From Chthoniobacter flavus (GTDB lineage: Bacteria; Verrucomicrobiota; Verrucomicrobiia; Chthoniobacterales; DYNR01): a stretch of 26,585 nucleotides of DNA. Below the pieces are notes generated by a model, which saw only the letters and a list, made by a program, of their open reading frames with translations, was not told the DNA's origin and did not search any database. The stretch is taken from the NCBI GenBank assembly GCA_020720945.1, contig DYNR01000001.1:4268-30852 (forward strand), read 5' to 3'. Of this stretch, positions 1-9,822 are shown one piece after another (position 1 is the stretch's first letter; each line of letters begins with the position of its first letter). The position numbers and the translations under genes are program-made.

Positions 1-2
1 CG

Positions 3-275
<273 letters not shown>

Positions 276-369
276 GCTCACTGGATGCTCGCAATGCAGG
301 AAAGAGCAAGGCCAGAAAATTCAGCAAACGCCGCAAACAGTCACAATTACCACCCTGACCCCTATTCCT

Positions 370-2790
370 ATGGACCAATCCCAGCTCAACTGGCTCACCA
401 ATTTCATCTGGAACATCGCCGACGACTGCCTGCGCGATGTCTTTGTCCGGGGCAAATACCGCGATGTGATCCTGCCGATGACCGTCCTTCGCCGCCTCGA
501 TGCCGTGCTGGAGCCGACCAAGGCCGCCGTGCTCGAAATGAAGTCCGCGCTCGACAAGGAAAAAATCACGAATCAAGACGATGCCCTCCGCGCCGCCTCC
601 GGTCAGGCTTTTTACAATACCTCCCCCTTCCTCCTGCGCGATCTGAAATCCCGCAAAACCCAGCAAACGCTCAAAGACGACTTCATCGCCTACCTCGACG
701 GCTTCTCGCCAAATGTGCAGGACATCATCAAAAACTTCGAATTCCGCAACCAGATCGGCAAGCTCGTGGAGTCCGACGGCCTCGGCCAACTCATCGAAAA
801 GTTCCTCAGCAAGGACATCAACCTCAGCCCGCATCCCGTGGGCGAGTTGCCCGGTCTGGACAACCACAGCATGGGCACCGTCTTCGAGGACCTCGTTCGC
901 ATGTTCAATGAGGACAACAACGAGGAAGCCGGGCAGCACTGGACACCACGCGATGCCGTGAAGCTCATGGCGAGCCTCATGTTCCTCCCCGTGGCAGACA
1001 AGATCGAATCCGGCACCTACCTGCTTTACGACTGCGCCTGCGGCACCGGCGGAATGTTGACCGTTGCCGACGAAACACTCCAGCAAATCGCCACTGCGCA
1101 CGGGAAGCAGGTGTCCACTTACCTTTACGGGCAGGAAATCAATGCCGAGACCTACGCCATCTGCAAAGCCGACCTCCTCCTGAAAGGCGATGGCGAAGCG
1201 GCGGACAACATCATCGGAGGCCCCGCCTTCTCCACGCTGTCAAACGATGCCTTCCGCTCCCGCAGCTTCGACTTCATGCTCGCCAATCCGCCCTACGGCA
1301 AAAGCTGGAAGAGCGACCTGGAACGACTCAGCGGCGACGGCGGCAAAAAGGGCGTCAAAGACCCGCGCTTCGTCATCGAACACGCTGGCGACCCCGAGTT
1401 TTCCCTCATCACCCGCAGCAGTGATGGGCAGATGCTTTTCCTCGCCAACATGCTCAGCAAGATGAAGCATGACACGCCACTCGGCAGCCGCATCGCGGAG
1501 ATTCACAACGGCTCCTCCCTCTTCACCGGCGACGCCGGGCAGGGCGAGAGCAACATCCGCCGCTGGGTCATCGAAAACGACTGGCTGGAAGCCATCGTCG
1601 CCCTGCCCCTGAATATGTTCTACAACACCGGCATCGCCACCTACATCTGGGTGCTCACAAACCGGAAAGCGGAACACCGCAAAGGCAAAGTCCAGCTCAT
1701 CGACGCCACCAACTGGTTCCGCCCCCTGCGCAAAAACATGGGCAAAAAAAACTGCGAACTCGCCCCCGAAGACATCCAGCGCATCTGCGATACCTTCCTC
1801 GCCTTCGAGGAAACGCCACAGTCGAAAATCTTCCCCAATGCCGCCTTCGGTTATTGGAAAGTAAAAGTCGAACGCCCGCTCCGCCTCCACAGCCAGCTCA
1901 CCCGCCCGCACATCGAAACCCTGCGCTTCACCTCGGGCGATGAAGACATCCGCGCCGCCCTCTATGCCGAGCTAGGCGAGGCCGTTTTTGAGAAATGGGC
2001 CGCCACGCTCCCCGCTTTGGAAAAACTCTTGTCCGATTGGTCGGATCCGTCCGAACCGACTGATCCCTCCGAAGACGAAGAGGTAGCACCCAAGAAAACC
2101 CTCTCCGACAAAAAGAAAAAGAAGCTCCTCAGCGAAGCCACTTGGCGGCGCGATGCCATGCTGCTCGATACCGCCCACCAACTCCGCAAAGCTCTCGGCG
2201 AAGACCTCTTCACCGACCACAATGTCTTTCTGGAAAAAGTCGAAGCCACGCTGAAAAAGCTCAACCTCAAACCCAGCGCCTCCGACCTCAAAACCATCAT
2301 CGCCGCCGTCAGTTGGCGCGTCGAGGACGCCCCGCCCGTCATCAAAAAAATCCACAAGCCGGGCAAAACCAAAGCCGACCCACTACACGGCCTCTACGAA
2401 ATGAATCCTTGCAATAAAAGCGCTTCACGGGTAGCGGGCATGGACACAGATCCCAATCCCATCTGCGAAAATCTGCGAAATCTGCGGATAAAAAATCCGG
2501 GGGCCGTAGTCGAGTTTGAACCCGACCCCGAACTCCGCGACTACGAGCAAATCCCCCTGCTGGAGGAGGGCGGCATCGAAGCCTTCCTCCGCCGCGAAGT
2601 CCTGCCCTACACGCCCGATGCCTGGATCGTCGAGTCCGACACCAAGATCGGCTACGAAGTCAGCTTCACCCGCCACTTCTACCAACCGCGCCAGCTCCGC
2701 ACCCTCGCCCAGATCAGCGCCGACATCCTCGCCTTGGAGCAGGAGACCGAAGGCCTGCTCCACGAAATCACGAAAGGAGCCAGCGCGTGA
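370..2790 (+). CDS. hsdM: Type I R-M N6-adenine methyltransferase subunit M (806 aa)
   Basis: Likely start is ATG 370 (MDQSQLNWLTNFIWNIADD), not 37. SAM motif YDCACGTGGML, catalytic ANPPYG, and YGQEIN, DGQMLFL and LPLNMFYNTGIATYIW segments. Confidence 0.95.
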   Translation: MDQSQLNWLTNFIWNIADDCLRDVFVRGKYRDVILPMTVLRRLDAVLEPTKAAVLEMKSALDKEKITNQDDALRAASGQAFYNTSPFLLRDLKSRKTQQTLKDDFIAYLDGFSPNVQDIIKNFEFRNQIGKLVESDGLGQLIEKFLSKDINLSPHPVGELPGLDNHSMGTVFEDLVRMFNEDNNEEAGQHWTPRDAVKLMASLMFLPVADKIESGTYLLYDCACGTGGMLTVADETLQQIATAHGKQVSTYLYGQEINAETYAICKADLLLKGDGEAADNIIGGPAFSTLSNDAFRSRSFDFMLANPPYGKSWKSDLERLSGDGGKKGVKDPRFVIEHAGDPEFSLITRSSDGQMLFLANMLSKMKHDTPLGSRIAEIHNGSSLFTGDAGQGESNIRRWVIENDWLEAIVALPLNMFYNTGIATYIWVLTNRKAEHRKGKVQLIDATNWFRPLRKNMGKKNCELAPEDIQRICDTFLAFEETPQSKIFPNAAFGYWKVKVERPLRLHSQLTRPHIETLRFTSGDEDIRAALYAELGEAVFEKWAATLPALEKLLSDWSDPSEPTDPSEDEEVAPKKTLSDKKKKKLLSEATWRRDAMLLDTAHQLRKALGEDLFTDHNVFLEKVEATLKKLNLKPSASDLKTIIAAVSWRVEDAPPVIKKIHKPGKTKADPLHGLYEMNPCNKSASRVAGMDTDPNPICENLRNLRIKNPGAVVEFEPDPELRDYEQIPLLEEGGIEAFLRREVLPYTPDAWIVESDTKIGYEVSFTRHFYQPRQLRTLAQISADILALEQETEGLLHEITKGASA
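2444..2489. repeat. ATCTGCG-triplet element (full right arm plus short left-arm remnant) in frame inside hsdM
   Basis: ACACAGAT (2444-2451), a 9-nt spacer, then ATCTGCGAAA-ATCTGCGAA-ATCTGCGGAT (2461-2489). Same 10+9+10 layout as the arm in hsdS. Confidence 0.8.
2761..2790 (+). repeat. Direct repeat copy 1 (hsdM 3' end, with Shine-Dalgarno and GTGA overlap)
   Basis: CACGAAATCACGAAAGGAGCCAGCGCGTGA, 25/30 identical to 3998-4027. Confidence 0.75.
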
Positions 2791-3908
2791 AAAAGAAGAA
2801 GCCCAAAATAGTGTCACCAGCGGTGACACAAATAGTCTCACCATTGGCGAGACAATTGCCAAAGGCAGCAATGGCTCCTGCCTTCACCGAAGTGCTCCAG
2901 CTGATTCAAGCCGCCAAACAAAGGGCGTATCAGGCCGTCAACACCGAGCTTGTTACGCTTTATTGGCAGGTCGGCGAATACATCAGTCGCAAGCTGGAAT
3001 CCTCCGAGTGGGGTGATAAAGTGGTGAACGATCTTGCCAGATACCTCGCGCGAACTCAGCCTGGGCTGATAGGTTTCACCCGCCGAAACCTGTTCCGAAT
3101 GCGCCAGTTTTATGATGCCTACCGCAACACTGAAATTGTGTCAGCAGTGCTGACACAATTGCCGTGGACCCATCACCTCATGATCATTGGAAGTTGCAAG
3201 CGCCCGGAGGAACGCGAGTTCTACATCCGCATGGCAACCAGTGAAGGGTGGCGCAGCAGAGAACTCCAGAGACAAATCCGATGCTGCCTGTTCGAGCGTG
3301 CCGTCATGAATCCGCCAAAAGTCGCAGCAGCACTGCGACAATTGCAGCCAGAGGTCACCAACATCTTCAAAGACATTTACACCCTCGAATTCCTCGGCCT
3401 CCCCGCCGACCACTCGGAGGCCGATCTGCACGGCGCACTGCTGCGCAATCTGGGCCGCTTCATCACCGAACTGGGGCGGGACTTCTGCTTTGTCGGCTCC
3501 CAATACCCGGTGCAGGTCGGCGGGCAAGACTTCGCTCTCGACCTGTTGTTTTTTCACCGCACCATGAACTGCCTCGTCGCCATCGAACTGAAGATTCGCG
3601 AGTTCCGCCCGGAGGATCTCGGCAAGCTCAACTTCTACCTCGAAGCCCTCGACCGCGACTACCGCAAGCCCCACGAAAACCCCTCCGTCGGCCTCCTCCT
3701 CTGCGCCACCAAAGATACCGAAGTCGTCGAGTATTGCCTCAGCCGCAGCCTCTCCCTGGCCATGATCGCCGAGTATGAAACCCTGCTGCCGGACAAGGAA
3801 CTACTGAAGGCCAAGCTGCACGAGTTCTACCAACTCTGCGCCCCACCGGAGGATGATATGGCAGAGCCAAAGCCATCAAAGCCCGCTCGAAGGAGGGAAA
3901 AGCCATGA
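2787..3908 (+). CDS. DUF1016/YhcG family PD-(D/E)XK nuclease-domain protein (373 aa)
   Basis: Motifs YQAVNTELVTLYWQVG, GFTRRNLFRMRQFY, LPWTHH, FKDIYTLEFLGL, DLLFFHR..VAIELK, LGKLNFYL and ENPSVGLLLC. GTG start overlaps the hsdM stop, with GAAAGGAG upstream. Confidence 0.92.
   Translation: MKKKKPKIVSPAVTQIVSPLARQLPKAAMAPAFTEVLQLIQAAKQRAYQAVNTELVTLYWQVGEYISRKLESSEWGDKVVNDLARYLARTQPGLIGFTRRNLFRMRQFYDAYRNTEIVSAVLTQLPWTHHLMIIGSCKRPEEREFYIRMATSEGWRSRELQRQIRCCLFERAVMNPPKVAAALRQLQPEVTNIFKDIYTLEFLGLPADHSEADLHGALLRNLGRFITELGRDFCFVGSQYPVQVGGQDFALDLLFFHRTMNCLVAIELKIREFRPEDLGKLNFYLEALDRDYRKPHENPSVGLLLCATKDTEVVEYCLSRSLSLAMIAEYETLLPDKELLKAKLHEFYQLCAPPEDDMAEPKPSKPARRREKP
2807..2857. repeat. Two tandem hairpins (24-nt period) in the 5' end of the DUF1016 gene
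   Basis: GTGTCACC-AGC-GGTGACAC and GTCTCACC-ATT-GGCGAGAC, encoding IVSPAVTQ and IVSPLARQL. Confidence 0.85.
3134..3160. repeat. Perfect 13-bp inverted repeat inside the DUF1016 gene
   Basis: AATTGTGTCAGCA-G-TGCTGACACAATT, encoding IVSAVLTQL just before PWTHH. Confidence 0.95.
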
Positions 3909-4027
3909 TCCACCGAATTGTTGACTCAGTGCGTCTAAATTCGATTTGGAACGCAGTGCGTGCCAAATTGAATCGGCGATGGCCCTCAGAAGCCTCGCAC
4001 GACATCATGAAAGGAGCCACGGCATGA
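3905..4027 (+). CDS. 40-aa bridging ORF, not in the supplied track (MIHRIVDSVRLNSIWNAVRAKLNRRWPSEASHDIMKGATA)
   Basis: AGGAGG at 3891-3896. ATGA overlaps with both the DUF1016 stop and the hsdS start. It contains two hairpin units, and its C-terminus resembles the HsdM C-terminus. Confidence 0.5.
   Translation: MIHRIVDSVRLNSIWNAVRAKLNRRWPSEASHDIMKGATA
3916..3969. repeat. Two tandem 27-nt hairpin units downstream of the DUF1016 gene
   Basis: 3943-3969 is GATTTGGAACGCA-G-TGCGTGCCAAATT (11/13 paired plus one G.T). 3916-3942 is a degenerate copy (about 8/13). Confidence 0.7.
3998..4027 (+). repeat. Direct repeat copy 2 (directly before and overlapping the hsdS start)
   Basis: CACGACATCATGAAAGGAGCCACGGCATGA, 25/30 identical to 2761-2790. 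Confidence 0.75.
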
Positions 4028-5502
4028 TCGAGGGACTTAAACCCTATGCGGAATACAAGGAGTCGGGCTCGAAGTGGCTAGGTGCTGTTCCAGCGAAATG
4101 GGAAGTGCGGAATCTCCGCACGCTGATCTCAAAGCGAGCCGAGCGAGACCGTCCCGACCTTCCGCTGCTTTCGGTGGCACGGGAGAAAGGCGTCTTCGTT
4201 CGCTCAATGACCGATGCGGACGAGAACCACAATGTTATCCCCGAGGACTTGACCAACTACAAGGTCGCCCGCGCTGGCAATCTCGTGATCAACAAGATGA
4301 AGGCGTGGCAGGGATCAATGGGCATTGCGCCTTGCGATGGTATTGTCAGCCCAGCGTATTTCGTCTTCGACTTCCGCATCGGCAATCACGGGTTCGGCCA
4401 GCGTCTCCTTCGCAGCAAACCGTATGTAGCACATTTTGCGCAGGCATCGGACGGTGTGCGAGTCGGTCAGTGGGATTTGTCCATTCCCGGAATGCGGCAG
4501 ATTCCCGTGCTCGTGCCCAGCGACGACGAACAAGCGGCGATCGTGCGGTTTCTGGATCATGCGAACCGGAAGATTGACGGATTCATCCGTGCCAAGCGGA
4601 AGCTGATTGGTTTGCTGAACGAGCAGAAGCAGGCCATCATCCACCGTGCCGTCACCCGTGGAGTGGATCATCCACAGATTTCGCAGATTTCCGCAGATGA
4701 AAACCAAAAAAATCTGCGCCCATCTGCGCAATCTGCGGATAACAACCTCAAACCTTCCGGCATCCCTTGGCTCGGCGACATCCCGAAGCATTGGGAGACT
4801 ATTACAGTGGGAGCGGCAACCTCCATGATTCAGACGGGGCCATTCGGAAGTCAGATTCACTCGAATGAGTATATCCGTGGAGGCACGCCGATCATCAATC
4901 CGTCGCATATGAAGGATGGCTCTATCGTAGCCGACATGGATGTCGCTGTTGGCGAAAGCAAGCTGCGAGAGCTTGCTCGGCATCGGATGTTGGTTGGCGA
5001 TATTGTCGTGGCGAGACGGGGAGAACTTGGTCGATGCGCTTTAGTTACCCAAAATGAAGAGGGATGGCTATGCGGCACAGGCAGTTTGCTTGTTCGGATT
5101 AAGCGCGATGTCTTTAATCCCGGTTATTTCCAGGAGGTGTTCTCTTCGTCAGGCGTGTGTGATTTACTTAGTTTGGCATCAGTTGGCTCGACGATGGACA
5201 ATCTCAATGCGGGCATGGTCGGTCGGTTAAGGTTTCCACTTCCGAGTGTTGAGGAGCAGACAGAGATACTAAAGTTTATTGGTGTTGAGAGGTCGAAAAA
5301 CACCGCCGCCATCGCCCGCACGGAGCGAGAAATCGCGCTGATGCAGGAATACCGGACGCGCCTGACGGCGGATGTAGTGACGGGCAAGCTGGATGTGCGC
5401 GAAGCCGCCGCCCAGCTCCCCGCCCTCGCCCCCGATTCCACCCCCGAACCCGCCAGCGAGGATTTGCCGGAAGAAACTGAACCCGAGGAGGATATGGAAT
5501 GA
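4024..5502 (+). CDS. hsdS: Type I R-M specificity subunit S (492 aa, two target recognition domains, TRDs)
   Basis: Start ATG 4024 after GAAAGGAG. Repeated conserved segments KESGSKWLGAVPAKWE and KPSGIPWLGDIPKHWE, plus P..DEQAAIVRFLD and LPSVEEQ..I. Ends with ADVVTGKLDVR. Confidence 0.93.
   Translation: MIEGLKPYAEYKESGSKWLGAVPAKWEVRNLRTLISKRAERDRPDLPLLSVAREKGVFVRSMTDADENHNVIPEDLTNYKVARAGNLVINKMKAWQGSMGIAPCDGIVSPAYFVFDFRIGNHGFGQRLLRSKPYVAHFAQASDGVRVGQWDLSIPGMRQIPVLVPSDDEQAAIVRFLDHANRKIDGFIRAKRKLIGLLNEQKQAIIHRAVTRGVDHPQISQISADENQKNLRPSAQSADNNLKPSGIPWLGDIPKHWETITVGAATSMIQTGPFGSQIHSNEYIRGGTPIINPSHMKDGSIVADMDVAVGESKLRELARHRMLVGDIVVARRGELGRCALVTQNEEGWLCGTGSLLVRIKRDVFNPGYFQEVFSSSGVCDLLSLASVGSTMDNLNAGMVGRLRFPLPSVEEQTEILKFIGVERSKNTAAIARTEREIALMQEYRTRLTADVVTGKLDVREAAAQLPALAPDSTPEPASEDLPEETEPEEDME
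4670..4740. repeat. 71-nt imperfect palindrome in frame inside hsdS
   Basis: 29-nt arms at 4670-4698 and 4712-4740 (24/29 complementary) with a 13-nt A-rich loop. Each arm is three ATCTGCG-like units. Confidence 0.9.
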
Positions 5503-6281
5503 TGCTCGAACTCCTCATAGCCACCCGGTTTGAAAAGGTGATGGGCTCTGGTCGCACCCAGCCTTGCCTGCTGGTGTGTGAAAACGAGGCAGGCGAAGAG
5601 GTCGAGGTGGTGGCCAAACTGCGCGGCCATCCGCAGATCATGCCGGGCGGCTTGCTGGCTGAGGCCGTGTCGTCTTTGCTCGCGCTTGATCTCGATCTGC
5701 CCGTGCAGACACCGTATCGAGTTGAGATTGAGAAGGCGTTTGCCGATGCGTTGCCGGACGCCGCCTTGCGGACAGTCATCCAGAAAAGCGAGGGGCTGAA
5801 CTTTGGCTCTGCAAAGTGGGCACCCGGCTACACGATCTGGCCGAGGGACAAAACGCCGTCGCGGGATATGAAGCAGAGCCTAACGGAGATTTTCGCCTTT
5901 GACGGGTTGATTCAAAATCCCGACCGTCGTCAAGCCAATCCGAACTGTGCTTTTCTTGGCACCGACCTCCGGATTTTCGACCACGAGTCCGCTTTTTCGC
6001 ACTTTATGTCCATCCTGCCGGTTGCTCCTTGGGATACAGGCGGGCTGGCTTTTCTAAAGGACCACATTTTTTTTCAATCACTTCGCGGCGGGAATCTTGC
6101 GCTGGATCGATTTCAGGGAGCACTGGAAGCCGTGGACGAATCCCGGCTGGACGCGTATATTGAAGCTGTTCCGAAGGAATGGAATGGTCAAACAACCACG
6201 GGGCCAAAGATCAAAACGCATCTGATGGAGTGCATCGCCAATTTTCAACACATTCGATTACAAATGGAGACACTGTTATGA
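5499..6281 (+). CDS. HipA-like / PI3K-PI4K-fold protein kinase (260 aa)
   Basis: Gly-rich MGSGRTQP, VVAK lysine, LLAE glutamate, catalytic loop NPDRRQANPN and IFDHESAF. ATGA overlaps at both ends. Confidence 0.8.
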   Translation: MMLELLIATRFEKVMGSGRTQPCLLVCENEAGEEVEVVAKLRGHPQIMPGGLLAEAVSSLLALDLDLPVQTPYRVEIEKAFADALPDAALRTVIQKSEGLNFGSAKWAPGYTIWPRDKTPSRDMKQSLTEIFAFDGLIQNPDRRQANPNCAFLGTDLRIFDHESAFSHFMSILPVAPWDTGGLAFLKDHIFFQSLRGGNLALDRFQGALEAVDESRLDAYIEAVPKEWNGQTTTGPKIKTHLMECIANFQHIRLQMETLL

Positions 6282-7135
6282 AAAAACATCCCTACACCTA
6301 CACCATCCTCCGCTATGTGCATGACACGAGCACGGGGGAATTTGCCAATGTGGGCATCGTTCTCTCTTCCCCGGAGGCTCACTACGCGACCGCCATTCTG
6401 TGCCCGAAATACACACGCCTCTCGAAGATGTTTCCGGGCTTCGATGGAGAGCATTTCCGCACGGTAATTCGTCACCTCCAATTGCGCCTCGATGAGATTG
6501 CCTGTTGCGTGCAACAGGAGCTGGAGCTGGGACAGAAGCCCGTGAATGCCCAAGAGATGGCATTCGCGGTGATTGCTCCCGACGATAGTTCTTTCCAGTG
6601 GTCGCCGATGGGAAGCGGAATAGCTACCGATCTAGCCGCCACGGCGGAGTCCATCTACGAGCGCATGGTCGAACGGTATGACGATCCAAAGAAGAATTTC
6701 AGTCGCTCCGACGAGGCCGTGTGGAAGACCTTCAAGAAGGGCTTTGAGGAGAAGCAGATTCTCTCGCGTTTCGGGACGAAGATTATTGCGGTGAAAGACG
6801 ACGAGGTTGAGTTCAGCCACGCATGGCAGAACCAGCAATGGCACTGCATGGAAACCTTGTCCTTCGATCTGATGCAGCCGCAGAGCATCAAAGATAAGGC
6901 TCACTCGTGGCTTGGCCGGATGACCAGCGTGAAGGATTCGCCGGACAAGTTCCGGGTCTATTTCCTCGTGGGAGAGCCGCAACTTGAAGGGAGCAAACGC
7001 GCCTTCGAGCAAGCCCTCAATGTGCTTCACAAAACACCCGTCGAACATGAGATCGTTCGCGAGAATGAAGCAGAGCACTTCGCGGAAGAGGTGGCAAAAA
7101 AAATTGCGGCGCATGACAAACAACTCGGAAAATAA
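6278..7135 (+). CDS. DUF3037-like protein (285 aa)
   Basis: N-terminal YTYTILRYVHDTSTGEFANVGIVL signature. Start ATG 6278 overlaps the kinase stop. Confidence 0.75.
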   Translation: MKKHPYTYTILRYVHDTSTGEFANVGIVLSSPEAHYATAILCPKYTRLSKMFPGFDGEHFRTVIRHLQLRLDEIACCVQQELELGQKPVNAQEMAFAVIAPDDSSFQWSPMGSGIATDLAATAESIYERMVERYDDPKKNFSRSDEAVWKTFKKGFEEKQILSRFGTKIIAVKDDEVEFSHAWQNQQWHCMETLSFDLMQPQSIKDKAHSWLGRMTSVKDSPDKFRVYFLVGEPQLEGSKRAFEQALNVLHKTPVEHEIVRENEAEHFAEEVAKKIAAHDKQLGK

Positions 7136-7153
7136 ACTAAACTAATAAAAAAT

Positions 7154-8699
7154 ATGCCATCCGACACCAGCGAAAAAGGACTCGAAACCCTGATCATGCG
7201 CCACCTGACCGGGACGGATGGCTTGGTTTCTGACCCAGCGGGAGTCGTCGCCGAGGATGCGCCCGCCAAGGCTGGAAGTCGTTGGTTCGCGGGAAGCCCC
7301 CAAAGTTATGACCGCGAGTTTGCGGTGGATACGGCGCAACTCTTCGCCTTTCTCATGACGACCCAACCGGAGGAATGGGCGAAGTTGGGCATCGCAAATT
7401 ACAAAGACGAGCACGGTATGGCGCGGCAGAAGTTCCTCGCCCGATTGCAGGGGGAAATCACGCGGCGGGGAACGATTGATGTGTTGCGCAAAGGCATCAA
7501 ACACGGGCCGTTGAGCTTCGACCTTTTCTATGGCACGCCGTCGCCGGAGAATGCGAAGGCGGTGGAGCGACACGCGAAAAACCGTTTCAGCATCACGCGG
7601 CAACTCCATTTCAGTCGGGAAAACAAACGCTCGCTGGACTTGTGCGCCTTCATCAACGGACTGCCGCTCATCACCTTTGAACTAAAGAACAGCTTGACCA
7701 AGCAGACGGTCGAGGATGCCATCGAGCAATACAAACGGGACCGCGATCCCCGCGAGACGCTGTTCGCATTTGGCCGCTGTGTCGTTCACTTCGCAGTGGA
7801 CGACCACGAAGTGGCAATGTGCACCGCCCTCAAAGGCAAGGGCGGCACGGCGAAGGACTCATGGTTTCTCCCGTTTAACCAAGGCTGGAACGACGGGGCG
7901 GGCAATCCTCAGCAACGAGACCGACCCAAATAAACTCCACACGCTCAAGGGCGATCTGGACAAGGTGCAGGTTTATTCTCCCGAGCAAATCGACGCGCTG
8001 GTTGAGCTGTATCTTGGAGGAGCCGACCGCGATAAACTCGACCCGATCCTCGACGCCTGCGTGGCTGTTTACATTAACGACCTCGACGAAGACGGGCAGG
8101 TGGATTTCAAAGGGAAAGCGAAGGCATTTACCCGCACCTATGACTTCCTCGCCACGATCCTGCCTTATGGCATCCAAGACTGGGAAAAACTCTCGATCTT
8201 CCTGAACTTCCTCATCCCCAAGCTACCCGCACCGAAGGAGGAAGACCTCGCCAAAGGCATCCTCGAAGCCATTGATATGGACAGCTACCGCGCCGAAAAA
8301 AAAGCGACGATGGCAATCGCGCTGCCTGATGAACCTGGCGTGATTGACCCGGTTCCCGTGTCAGGCGGAGGTCGCAAGCCGGAGCCAGAAATGGACAAAC
8401 TCTCGAACATCGTGAACGAGTTTAACCAGCATTACGCGGGCGGCTACGCGGACCCCGAACGAACGCTCGGACGGATCCACGGCGAGATCCCACAAAAGGT
8501 TTCCGAAGATCAGGCTTACAAAAACGCCAAGCAGAACTCGGACCGGCAGAACGCGAAAATCGAGCATGACAAGGCACTCAAACGAGTAATCACTGCGATG
8601 TTCAAGGACGATGCCCAACTCTTCAAGCAGTTTCAGGACAACGAATCCTTCCGCCATTGGCTGACGGAAACGGTTTTTGGCATGACCTACGAGGAGTAG
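7154..8699 (+). pseudogene. hsdR: Type I R-M restriction subunit R, internally deleted and frameshifted
   Basis: The N-part has SEKGLE, RFSITRQLHFS, DLCAFINGLPLITFELKN and FLPFNQGWNDGAGNP. At about 7905 it jumps to a C-terminal HsdR segment in another frame (ILSNETDPNKLH...FKQFQDNESFRHWL). No Walker A, DEAH or helicase motifs lie between them. Confidence 0.88.
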
Positions 8700-8729
8700 G
8701 AACTAATTTTTGCATAGCGAGTCGATAAC

Positions 8730-8761
8730 AGACGGATTATTAAAAAGTTATCCGTTTTTTC
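8730..8761 (+). terminator. Possible weak intrinsic terminator after hsdR
   Basis: ACGGAT...ATCCGT stem with an AT-rich interior, followed by a T6 run. Confidence 0.4.
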
Positions 8762-8880
8762 TCCACCCCATTTTGTGCGATCTTGGAGCCTGCGAGCAGG
8801 CGCAAAAATTTCTCGAATTGCTTCTCCCTATTGCCAAGAAAAATTTTTTCGGCTAATACACCTCCCTCCTTTTGCCACCA

Positions 8881-9822
8881 ATGAAACACTTTATCCAATT
8901 TGCACCGCTCCCGATGGAACGGGTTTGGGGGGGGCGCGAACTTGCCTCCTTGTTCGGAAAAAAATTGCCAGATGGGGTTCCCGTCGGCGAATCTTGGGAA
9001 ATCGTTGACCGCCCAGAAGCACAAAGCGTCGTCTGCTGCGGCGAATGGGAAGGCAAATCGCTCAACGACCTTTGGAAAAACCACAGGCAAGAAGTGTTTG
9101 GAACGGCCTACGCCAACCACCCTTCGGAACGCTTCCCAGTTTTGGTCAAACTGCTGGACGCAAGGGAAACGCTCTCTGTCCAAGTCCACCCGCCCGCGCA
9201 CCGTGCCGAAGCGCTCCGCGGCGAACCTAAAACGGAAATGTGGTATTTCCTGCGTGCCGATGAAGGGGCGTGCATTTATGCGGGTGTCCAAAATGGCGTG
9301 GATCGCGCGGAGTTTGAACGCCTCCTCGAAAAAGGTGGCGTAGAAAACGCCCTGATCCGCCTACCCGTCAAACCGGGCGAAAGCATTTTCATCCCCAGCG
9401 GCAGACTCCACGCCATCGGTGCCGGAACCGTCATCGCCGAAATCCAACAAAACAGCGACACCACCTACCGCGTGTTTGACTGGAACCGCCTGGGACTGGA
9501 CGGCAAACCGCGGGATTTGCATGTCCAAGAATCACTGGAATCCATTGATTTCGAGGATCATGCACCATCCCTGCAACCCGCCGAACAACCCTTGCTCGCC
9601 GATTGCCCTTACTTCCGCGTAGAAAAGAAAACCCTCTCGGGAAAAAGCTCGCTATCCCTCGGAGAAAAATTCCTTTTGTGGTGCGTAGCTTCCGGCAAAC
9701 TGATCATCGGAGAAGAAGAAATCCCGCCGGGCCATTTCCTCCTTTTGCCCGCAGGAAACTCGTTCGCCATCGATTGCGATAATTGCGAAATTTTAGAAAT
9801 CTCGCTGCCGGCGCAAGGCTGA
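8881..9822 (+). CDS. manA: Type I mannose-6-phosphate isomerase
   Basis: WGG, GESWE, VKLLDARETLSVQVHP, KTEMWY, HAIGAG and EIQQNSDTTYRVFDWNR. ATG 8881 preferred over TTG 8872. Confidence 0.9.
   Translation: MKHFIQFAPLPMERVWGGRELASLFGKKLPDGVPVGESWEIVDRPEAQSVVCCGEWEGKSLNDLWKNHRQEVFGTAYANHPSERFPVLVKLLDARETLSVQVHPPAHRAEALRGEPKTEMWYFLRADEGACIYAGVQNGVDRAEFERLLEKGGVENALIRLPVKPGESIFIPSGRLHAIGAGTVIAEIQQNSDTTYRVFDWNRLGLDGKPRDLHVQESLESIDFEDHAPSLQPAEQPLLADCPYFRVEKKTLSGKSSLSLGEKFLLWCVASGKLIIGEEEIPPGHFLLLPAGNSFAIDCDNCEILEISLPAQG

What the first reader, a model, noticed from the sequence alone, without database searches (positions are those of the whole stretch)
5499..7135. Kinase plus DUF3037 pair in the hsdS-hsdR slot: candidate R-M guard / abortive-infection module
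Seen: an intact-looking HipA/PI3K-fold kinase (Lys, Glu, DRxxxN and DHE motifs present) coupled by ATGA overlaps to hsdS and to a DUF3037-like gene. No HipB-like HTH antitoxin is visible. Established: the same hsdS-hsdR position holds PrrC in EcoprrI, a toxin held silent by the R-M complex and released when phage inhibits it, and HipA-family kinases are toxins. Inference: the kinase is a toxin or signal and DUF3037 is its antitoxin or effector (its C-terminal EFSHAW...METLSFD half might be a degenerate nuclease-like fold), together backing up type I R-M. Its mechanism is, to my knowledge, uncharacterised.
Basis: partly seen in the sequence, partly recalled or inferred. Interest (0 to 1): 0.75.

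Follow-up and report, generated by a model that had tools for sequence, protein, structure and literature searches.

The report
Known kinase/DUF3037 anti-phage gene pair
The two overlapping genes are a real, intact copy of an already catalogued and partly validated anti-phage toxin/neutraliser pair (a small HipA-like kinase and its DUF3037 partner, called PDC-M66, HipAD or DS-6), carried as cargo inside a type I restriction-modification operon whose own cutting enzyme gene has been destroyed by a deletion.

Summary
A 260-aa HipA_2 kinase (5499-6281) and a 285-aa DUF3037 protein (6278-7135) are joined to each other and to hsdS by ATGA overlaps. All kinase motifs are present and no HTH antitoxin is visible.

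The pair is not uncharacterised:
- It matches PADLOC candidate PDC-M66 A and B (E 8e-67 and 3e-86). That candidate was predicted from exactly this kind of embedding in R-M loci.
- Distant homologues have been validated. In DS-6/HipAD of E. coli, the kinase mutant D139A loses defence. In the Retron-Sda1 module, deleting the kinase abolishes defence and deleting DUF3037 is toxic.
- This scan has met the pair about 284 times on other DNA, including in this same slot.

New here:
- In this subfamily, 30 of 56 loci are attached to type I R-M, always just after hsdS. This holds in two R-M families with different gene orders.
- 26 of 56 loci are free-standing, and the two states alternate on the tree.
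- In this window hsdR has lost residues 254-742, the motor, while the pair is intact and under purifying selection.
- The C-terminal half of the DUF3037 protein has a restriction-endonuclease-like fold.

A PrrC-like R-M guard role is not excluded but is not favoured. This is an ordinary new member of a known kind.

The parts
5499..6281 (+). HipA_2-type short protein kinase (260 aa; PDC-M66A / HipA of HipAD type), the inferred toxin/effector
   Evidence: Pfam PF20613 E 1.6e-12. PADLOC PDC-M66A E 7.8e-67, covering 2-258 of 260 residues. K40, E55, D142, R143, N149, D161 and H162 are invariant. AF2 model pLDDT 95, pTM 0.92. Best fold matches are CtkA, PI3K/PI4K and HipT. dN/dS is 0.10-0.12 against relatives.
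6278..7135 (+). DUF3037 protein (285 aa; PDC-M66B / HipD type), the inferred neutraliser. It has an N-terminal DUF3037 domain (about residues 1-132) and a C-terminal restriction-endonuclease-like domain (about 144-280).
   Evidence: Pfam PF11236 E 4.6e-17 on residues 8-131. PADLOC PDC-M66B E 2.6e-86. AF2 model pLDDT 89 with two domains. The C-terminal domain gives VIA Z 8.2, 7.6 and 7.5 to BstEII, BsoBI and PspGI. dN/dS is 0.05-0.07. The 4-bp overlap with the kinase gene is present in 71 of 73 related loci.
3946..5502 (+). hsdS (type I specificity subunit); its stop codon overlaps the kinase start
   Evidence: PADLOC Specificity_I E 3e-93; Pfam Methylase_S. ATGA at 5499-5502.
370..2790 (+). 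hsdM (type I methyltransferase). The listed ORF starts at 37, but similarity starts near residue 112 (nt 370).
   Evidence: Pfam HsdM_N and N6_Mtase. PADLOC MTase_I E 8e-253 on residues 113-912. Position of the MDQSQ start.
2787..3908 (+). DUF1016/YhcG PD-(D/E)xK protein, a second embedded cargo gene (PADLOC PDC-S02)
   Evidence: Pfam DUF1016_N and YhcG_C. PADLOC PDC-S02 E 4e-131.
7154..8699 (+). hsdR remnant. The N-terminal 253 codons and C-terminal 264 codons are joined out of frame at 7905-7909; residues 254-742 (the helicase motor) are deleted.
   Evidence: tblastn of an intact 1006-aa HsdR (L002) hits 7160-7909 in frame 2 and 7905-8696 in frame 3. There is ATCC microhomology at the junction, and a second assembly (L017, 99.68% identical) crosses the same junction. 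Unitigs reaching 24 nt past the junction occur in two runs, short of the tool's 31-letter bridging rule.

Best explanation
The pair is a Verrucomicrobiota member of the PDC-M66 / HipAD (DS-6) family, a two-gene kinase-toxin and neutraliser anti-phage module. It is carried as self-sufficient cargo in the hsdS-hsdR slot of a type I R-M operon and is co-transcribed with it. Inferred mechanism: the short HipA-like Ser/Thr kinase is the effector. It is made in fixed ratio with the DUF3037 protein through the conserved 4-bp overlap, and that protein holds it inactive. Phage infection releases or outlasts the neutraliser by a trigger that is still unknown. The kinase then phosphorylates an essential target, so that the cell stops growing and the infection aborts. 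The C-terminal restriction-endonuclease-like domain of the DUF3037 protein probably binds nucleic acid, for autoregulation or sensing, and does not act as a standard nuclease. Shown here: identity of the families, intact catalytic residues, conserved coupling, purifying selection, predicted folds and genomic distribution. Taken from papers on distant homologues: toxicity without DUF3037, loss of defence without kinase activity. Inferred: target, trigger and the abortive outcome in this organism.
For: PADLOC PDC-M66A at 7.8e-67 and PDC-M66B at 2.6e-86, both nearly full length. Pfam HipA_2 and DUF3037. PMC12548924: the HipA-like/DUF3037 pair of the Retron-Sda1 operon is called PDC-M66 by PADLOC, deleting the kinase abolishes defence against Bas51, and deleting DUF3037 is toxic. 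PMC13092281: DS-6 = HipAD defends E. coli, the catalytic mutant D139A loses defence, and AF3 predicts A-B binding. DS-6 has the same gene order and the same 4-bp overlap (coordinates). Read by eye against the printed sequence, its D139 sits in NADR, matching D142 in NPDR here. The kinase-DUF3037 4-bp overlap is present in 71 of 73 loci. dN/dS is 0.05-0.12. The kinase model is confident and kinase-like. The kinase profile aligns to the catalytic loop of a canonical HipA at hhalign E 8e-4. Autonomy: 26 of 56 related loci have no type I R-M nearby, with at least 10 switches between linked and free on the tree. Standalone examples were seen. Copies on Vibrio and Pseudomonas plasmids are annotated as HipA family kinase plus DUF3037. 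The pair is intact here although hsdR is dead.
Against: All functional evidence comes from distant homologues; by eye DS-6B shares only motif-level similarity, and no test exists for this clade. Kinase-neutraliser binding could not be assessed computationally. The trigger and the phosphorylation target are unknown for the whole family. The very frequent attachment to the 3' end of hsdS (30 of 56 loci) is more than a fully context-independent module would need.
Confidence: 0.72

Rival explanations
1. R-M guard, working like PrrC. In the R-M-linked members the kinase or neutraliser is held silent by, or monitors, the HsdM2S (or HsdR2M2S) complex. It fires when a phage anti-restriction protein such as Ocr or ArdA inactivates that complex.
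For: Same slot as prrC in EcoprrI (established knowledge). 30 of 56 loci of this subfamily are attached to type I R-M, always directly behind hsdS. This holds in two R-M families with different gene orders: hsdS-[pair]-hsdR, and an EcoEI-type hsdR-hsdM-hsdS-[pair]. The hsdS stop and the kinase start lie within -7 to +8 nt in 17 of 30 linked loci. The whole clade containing the window (7 of 7 loci with flanks, support 100/99) keeps the embedded position.
Against: 26 of 56 loci are free-standing and the free and linked states are interspersed on the tree. Validated homologues defend E. coli when cloned without any cognate R-M. The same slot in relatives also holds unrelated cargo (RT, pP_pnuc, Fic, DarT/Macro, Ymh, DUF1016), so it is a general landing site. 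hsdR is destroyed here while the pair stays intact; a guard that reads only HsdM/S would not be affected by this. There is no sequence or fold similarity to PrrC.
Confidence: 0.12
2. Pure addiction module. The kinase/neutraliser pair only stabilises the R-M/defence island, by killing cells that lose it, and gives no phage protection in this organism.
For: Toxin/antitoxin behaviour in a homologue. It persists in an island whose restriction function is already lost. Copies occur on plasmids.
Against: Two independent homologues gave measurable phage defence that depended on the kinase. Other cargo in the same slot consists of defence genes.
Confidence: 0.1
3. The DUF3037 protein is itself an effector nuclease through its C-terminal PD-(D/E)xK-like domain, controlled by phosphorylation from the kinase. 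The kinase would then be the sensor or switch, not the toxin.
For: The C-terminal domain matches restriction endonucleases and cOA-activated nucleases (BstEII, BsoBI, PspGI, Cdn1, Can2, Card1) at Z 8.2-5.9. D174, E176, H189, E192, D197 and K207 are at least 93% conserved in the subfamily.
Against: The Z values are in the range the tool reports as common background. The canonical Lys of (D/E)xK is Leu/Val at position 194. By eye, several of these residues are not conserved in DS-6B. In the Sda1 module, deleting DUF3037 is toxic and deleting the kinase abolishes defence, which is the pattern of a kinase toxin.
Confidence: 0.06

Closest known systems
HipAD = DS-6 (E. coli prophage system; DeWeirdt et al., DefensePredictor, PMC13092281; Brenes & Laub 2025, PMID 40409266, not readable here)
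   Same: Short HipA-like kinase of about 250-260 aa, followed with a 4-bp overlap by a 275-285 aa DUF3037 protein. No HipB. The catalytic Asp (D139 there, D142 here) lies in N-x-D-R. The N-terminal DUF3037 motifs (Y-x-I-x-RY...EFAN-G, S-x-FQ-S) and the C-terminal H-S-x-W-x-x-R-x-T motif are shared (by eye).
   Different: Only motif-level sequence similarity. DS-6 lies in a prophage, not in an R-M operon. Several conserved acidic residues of the C-terminal domain in this subfamily are not conserved in DS-6B. Nothing has been tested for the Verrucomicrobiota clade.
PADLOC phage-defence candidate PDC-M66 (Payne, Hughes, Fineran & Jackson 2024, bioRxiv 10.1101/2024.01.29.577857)
   Same: Both proteins match the two PDC-M66 profiles end to end. 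The candidate was derived from genes embedded in BREX, DISARM and type I R-M loci, which is the situation seen here.
   Different: PDC-M66 is a bioinformatic candidate without a mechanism. That paper does not describe the pair individually (no mention of HipA or DUF3037 in the text).
HipA-like/DUF3037 module of the Retron-Sda1 operon (PMC12548924)
   Same: PADLOC calls it PDC-M66. It is a standalone defence with kinase-toxin and DUF3037-neutraliser genetics.
   Different: It sits next to a retron RT/ncRNA instead of an R-M system. The authors report similarity of the C-terminus of its DUF3037 protein to a retron DNA-binding accessory protein; this was not examined here.
Canonical HipBA and HipBST type II toxin-antitoxin systems
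   Same: Remote homology of the kinase core: the catalytic loop aligns to a HipA_C protein (hhalign E 8e-4), and HipT is among the fold matches. The logic is a kinase toxin.
   Different: The kinase has 260 aa, not about 440. It has no HipA N-terminal subdomain and no HipB HTH antitoxin. The toxin gene comes first. The DUF3037 profile shows no similarity to a HipA N-terminal region.
PrrC anticodon nuclease in the EcoprrI type I R-M locus
   Same: Gene position between hsdS and hsdR; a latent toxin as a second line of defence.
   Different: No homology, since PrrC is an ABC-ATPase-like anticodon nuclease. PrrC is almost exclusively R-M-embedded, whereas this pair is free-standing in about half of related loci.

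Membership tests
PDC-M66 / HipAD (DS-6) kinase-DUF3037 defence system | Short HipA_2-type kinase of about 250-265 aa | tested here: met
   PF20613 E 1.6e-12. PDC-M66A E 7.8e-67, residues 2-258.
PDC-M66 / HipAD (DS-6) kinase-DUF3037 defence system | DUF3037 protein encoded immediately downstream and translationally coupled | tested here: met
   PF11236 E 4.6e-17 and PDC-M66B E 2.6e-86. ATGA overlap at 6278-6281, conserved in 71 of 73 loci.
PDC-M66 / HipAD (DS-6) kinase-DUF3037 defence system | Catalytic Asp equivalent to DS-6A D139, which is required for defence | tested here: met
   D142 in NPDR is invariant in 42 homologues. DS-6A D139 lies in NADR (sequence printed, aligned by eye, not by a tool).
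PDC-M66 / HipAD (DS-6) kinase-DUF3037 defence system | Kinase toxic without DUF3037; kinase-dependent phage defence | not testable with these tools
   Needs expression and plaque assays. Known only for the distant homologues.
Canonical HipBA type II TA | About 440-aa HipA with an N-terminal subdomain plus the HipA_C domain | tested here: not met
   260 aa. Only PF20613 matches, with no HipA_C or couple_hipA hit even at E up to 10.
Canonical HipBA type II TA | Upstream HipB HTH antitoxin | tested here: not met
   hsdS lies upstream and overlaps the kinase gene. No HTH domain in any ORF of the operon.
PrrC-type R-M-dependent guard | Located between hsdS and hsdR | tested here: met
   also 7 of 7 loci of the window's clade.
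PrrC-type R-M-dependent guard | PrrC architecture (NTPase domain plus anticodon nuclease domain) | tested here: not met
   Pfam and PADLOC give only HipA_2 / DUF3037 / PDC-M66.
PrrC-type R-M-dependent guard | Obligate association with an R-M system | tested here: not met
   26 of 56 related loci have no detectable type I R-M within the flanks, and the two states are interspersed on the tree. Caveat: R-M families missed by my HMMs would be counted as free.
PD-(D/E)xK nuclease superfamily (C-terminal domain of the DUF3037 protein) | alpha-beta-beta-beta-alpha-beta restriction-endonuclease-like core | tested here: inconclusive
   The secondary-structure order fits. Top VIA matches are restriction enzymes and related nucleases at Z 8.2-5.4, but the tool states that Z 7-8 is a typical best score for unmatched models. 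Foldseek found nothing at E below 1e-3.
PD-(D/E)xK nuclease superfamily (C-terminal domain of the DUF3037 protein) | Catalytic D...(D/E)-x-K triad | tested here: inconclusive
   D174 lies before beta2 and E192 in beta3, both conserved, but the Lys position is L/V194. K168 or K207 might substitute.

The most novel reading that the evidence does not exclude
In the R-M-linked lineages the pair is more than cargo: it is a functional extension of the HsdM/HsdS methylase, made in fixed ratio from the same transcript. It would read the state of that complex, for example blockade by DNA-mimic anti-restriction proteins, and release the kinase, giving a kinase-based analogue of PrrC. That would explain why two unrelated type I families with different gene orders both carry it fused to the 3' end of hsdS, and why it survives here after loss of hsdR.
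Probability: 0.12. Interest if true: 0.6.

Novelty: new member of a known kind. Interest (0 to 1): 0.22.

Why it matters
The finding mainly shows that this scan keeps rediscovering a defence system that is already named and partly validated, so it should not be treated as new. Three points add modest value:
- A quantified picture of how tightly this subfamily is tied to the 3' end of hsdS, in two type I families, while still switching repeatedly to free-standing sites.
- A natural case in which the embedded module outlives the restriction function of its host operon.
- A fold assignment (restriction-endonuclease-like) for the unannotated C-terminal half of the neutraliser. This gives a concrete hypothesis, nucleic-acid binding or sensing, for a family whose trigger and target are unknown.

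Tried and rejected
- Complex prediction of kinase plus DUF3037 protein, run without alignments: score 0.28 against a mark of 0.34, so no verdict. It is not used as evidence either way.
- The idea that the DUF3037 N-terminal domain is a HipS-like or HipA-N-subdomain-like neutraliser: hhalign of profile A1 against a canonical HipA from L012 gave nothing (probability 0.2). The whole-model fold searches returned only C-domain matches.
- Pfam DUF1829, reported for DS-6B at HHpred probability 0.78, was not found in the window protein even at E up to 10.
- tblastn against the phage collection found no match.
- Profile searches of PDB sequences found no solved relative of either protein.
- NCBIfam has no model hit for either protein.
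- Large ORFs downstream of the pair in the EcoEI-type loci were tested as possible hsdR genes and are unrelated (CotH, TPR, histidine kinase and others). The hsdR of those loci lies upstream of hsdM.
- The promoter/terminator scan of 1-9500 gave counts at chance level and nothing between hsdS and hsdR.
- A literature search for the word 'HipAD' returned only unrelated papers. The Brenes & Laub paper is not held.
Full report
**What is in the sequence**

On the + strand the window starts with one tightly packed, co-directional gene row:
- hsdM: the ORF is listed as 37-2790, but similarity begins at residue 112, nt 370.
- A DUF1016/YhcG PD-(D/E)xK gene at 2787-3908, which matches PADLOC PDC-S02.
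- hsdS at 3946-5502.
- A 260-aa kinase at 5499-6281.
- A 285-aa DUF3037 protein at 6278-7135.
- After 18 AT-rich bases, an hsdR start at 7154.

Each is preceded by a Shine-Dalgarno-like run. A consensus scan finds no promoter or terminator signal above chance between hsdS and hsdR.

**What the two proteins are**

- The kinase matches Pfam HipA_2 (PF20613, E 1.6e-12). The second protein matches DUF3037 (PF11236, E 4.6e-17, residues 8-131).
- Both match the two profiles of PADLOC candidate PDC-M66 almost end to end: A at E 7.8e-67 and B at E 2.6e-86.
- An alignment of 42 kinase homologues down to 35% identity keeps K40, E55, D135, N140, D142, R143, N149, D161 and H162 invariant.
- The AlphaFold2 model of the kinase is confident (pLDDT 95, pTM 0.92). 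Its best solved matches are the small bacterial kinase CtkA (E 1.4e-5), PI3K/PI4K-type kinases and HipT.
- The kinase profile aligns to the catalytic loop of a canonical 440-aa HipA at hhalign E 8e-4.
- It is therefore a remote, truncated relative of HipA and not a HipBA member. It lacks the HipA N-terminal subdomain, there is no HipB HTH protein, and the toxin gene comes first.

**What is already known about this pair**

- PDC-M66 comes from Payne et al. 2024. They collected genes embedded in BREX, DISARM and type I R-M systems and released 145 candidates in PADLOC. The pair is not discussed by name in their text.
- PMC12548924 found a HipA-like/DUF3037 pair next to Retron-Sda1 and noted that PADLOC calls it PDC-M66. 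Deleting the kinase abolishes defence against phage Bas51. Deleting DUF3037 is toxic. The retron parts are dispensable.
- PMC13092281 validated DS-6 in E. coli, renamed HipAD with reference to Brenes & Laub 2025. Its kinase mutant D139A loses defence, and AlphaFold3 predicts A-B and B-DNA contacts.
- The DS-6 genes have the same order and the same 4-bp overlap (coordinates 2415-3164 and 1591-2418 on the minus strand).
- Reading the printed DS-6A sequence by eye against the alignment gives these correspondences: VLK to VAK (K40), LLAEF to LLAEA (E55), FD-W-I-L-NADR to FD-G-L-I-Q-NPDR, and IDHN to FDHE.
- The residue shown to be essential there (D139) thus corresponds to D142 here. This equivalence is by eye and not from a tool.
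- The claim that the system is uncharacterised does not hold.
- This scan has also noted the pair 284 times in at least 248 other genomes, including in the hsdS-hsdR slot of a probable Verrucomicrobiota genome.

**The DUF3037 protein**

- The AlphaFold2 model (pLDDT 89) has two domains joined by a low-confidence linker at residues 137-140; pTM is 0.53.
- The N-terminal DUF3037 domain found no solved relative.
- The C-terminal domain (about residues 144-280) has the order alpha-beta-beta-beta-alpha-beta-alpha-beta.
- In an exhaustive structural comparison its best matches are restriction endonucleases and related nucleases: BstEII at Z 8.2, BsoBI at 7.6, PspGI at 7.5. They are followed by Cdn1, Bax1, I-Bth0305I, XPF/Mus81-type domains, Can2, Card1 and EcoRII.
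- The theme is consistent, but the Z values lie where the tool warns that unrelated best hits also fall. Foldseek gave nothing below E 1e-3. I treat the fold assignment as probable, not proven.
- Within the subfamily D174, E176, H189, E192, D197 and K207 are at least 93% conserved.
- The canonical lysine of (D/E)xK is Leu or Val at position 194. By eye, several of these residues differ in DS-6B.
Whether the site is active is open.

**State of the surrounding R-M system**

- An intact 1006-aa HsdR from a close relative (L002) aligns to the window in two pieces. Residues 4-253 align at 7160-7909 in one frame, and residues 743-1006 at 7905-8696 in another frame. The whole helicase motor, 489 codons, is missing and the two parts are out of frame.
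- The junction shows ATCC microhomology.
- A second public assembly (L017, 99.68% identical, 17 mismatches) crosses the same junction.
- In two metagenome runs, unitigs at the local depth (about 25-29x) reach 24 nt past the junction, which is short of the tool's own 31-letter rule for counting a record as bridging.
- Other contigs in the same runs branch at 7905 and 7910 into sequence that reads like the intact gene. Intact alleles therefore seem to coexist in those communities.
- hsdM and hsdS look intact. The locus can probably still methylate but cannot restrict.
- The fragments of hsdR still show dN/dS near 0.1 against relatives, so the deletion is recent.
- The kinase (dN/dS 0.10-0.12) and the DUF3037 gene (0.05-0.07) are under purifying selection across the clade.

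**Link of the pair to R-M systems**

- Look-ups of seven homologues gave a first picture. Three closer ones (82, 59 and 54% identity) lie in the hsdS-hsdR slot together with other cargo: a reverse transcriptase, pP_pnuc, Fic, DarT/Macro and Ymh. Four distant ones (37-42% identity) are free-standing.
- A scan of one genome per species found 388 relatives; the best 80 loci were fetched.
- I used HMMs built and iterated on these loci, with Pfam confirmation of ten upstream ORFs as EcoEI-type HsdR.
- Of the 56 loci with at least 3 kb of upstream sequence, 30 are attached to a type I R-M:
  - 7 have the order hsdS-[pair]-hsdR.
  - 2 have hsdM-hsdS-hsdR-[pair].
  - 21 have hsdR-hsdM-hsdS-[pair], in a different type I family.
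- The other 26 loci have no R-M in the flanks.
- In 17 of the 30 linked loci the hsdS stop and the kinase start lie within -7 to +8 nt.
- The kinase-DUF3037 overlap of 4 bp is present in 71 of 73 loci.
- On a maximum-likelihood tree of the DUF3037 proteins the embedded arrangement forms one Verrucomicrobiota clade (support 100/99), which includes the window's relatives.
- The 'behind hsdS' and 'free' states are interspersed, with at least ten changes forced by well-supported branches.
- Caveats: the 80 loci are the nearest relatives of this protein and not a random sample. R-M families that my HMMs miss would be counted as free.

**Interpretation**

The best-supported reading is a self-sufficient kinase-toxin/neutraliser defence module of the HipAD/PDC-M66 kind that rides in a cargo slot of a type I R-M operon (confidence 0.72). 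Four points argue against a PrrC-like dependence on the R-M complex:
- About half of the related loci are free-standing.
- Switching between linked and free is repeated on the tree.
- Tested homologues work in E. coli without a cognate R-M.
- The same slot accepts many unrelated defence genes, and the pair persists here beside a dead hsdR.

The recurrent, often translationally coupled attachment to hsdS in two type I families is nonetheless striking. A guard that reads only HsdM/S would not be affected by the loss of hsdR. I keep that reading at about 0.12. Rarer alternatives are a pure addiction function (0.10) and a role of the DUF3037 C-terminal domain as the real effector nuclease (0.06).

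**Verdict**

Its novelty claim fails. This is a new member of a known kind, of low interest apart from the quantified hsdS linkage and the fold hint for the neutraliser.

Noticed in passing
window 7154-8699 (junction 7905-7909): hsdR is an out-of-frame internal-deletion remnant lacking residues 254-742, the whole motor, with ATCC microhomology at the junction. The same junction is present in a second assembly (L017). Unitigs in two runs reach 24 nt past it, short of the tool's 31-letter bridging rule.
   Followed up: yes
window 7905 and 7910 (loose ends in runs X1-X4): Contigs in the same metagenomes branch at the deletion junction into sequence that reads like the intact hsdR (…FADYYRTT before 7905, PNPDGIKTDY after 7910). 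Deleted and intact alleles, or close relatives, therefore seem to coexist in the communities.
   Followed up: partly
window 2787-3908: A DUF1016/YhcG PD-(D/E)xK gene (PADLOC PDC-S02, E 4e-131) is a second embedded cargo gene, between hsdM and hsdS. Its start overlaps the hsdM stop.
   Followed up: partly
window 2678-7959 versus L017: The 17 mismatches between the two assemblies cluster in the hsdM 3' end (2685-2775) and the hsdR 5' fragment (7351-7714). The 3.8 kb of cargo plus hsdS between them differs at one base. This suggests recombination in the conserved flanks or mixing of strains.
   Followed up: partly
L002, L005, L008 (loci of close homologues): In relatives the same hsdS-hsdR slot holds further cargo: a 656-aa RT-like protein plus pP_pnuc (L002); Fic, RT and DarT/Macro (L005); and a Ymh-family gene between hsdM and hsdS (L008). 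In L002 and L008 the kinase/DUF3037 pair is the last cargo before hsdR; in L005 DarT/Macro lies between it and hsdR.
   Followed up: partly
L033, L037, L038, L041, L043, L048, L065, L071, L073, L084: In a second type I family, with an EcoEI-type HsdR of 800-950 aa and the order hsdR-hsdM-hsdS, the pair is appended directly after hsdS at the 3' end of the operon. It is not embedded.
   Followed up: yes
window 37-370: The long ORF listed for hsdM starts 111 codons upstream of the first residue with similarity. That extension translates to an Ala/Val-rich low-complexity run and is probably not coding.
   Followed up: no
window 6778-6904 (runs X3, X4): A minority unitig (depth about 11 against about 22) carries 12 substitutions within the DUF3037 gene, pointing to a second strain variant of the pair in those samples.
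   Followed up: no
plasmid hits H3-H16 (Vibrio, Pseudomonas syringae/amygdali): Distant DUF3037 / 'HipA family kinase' pairs are annotated on mobilizable and conjugative plasmids, showing that the module also travels on plasmids.
   Followed up: no
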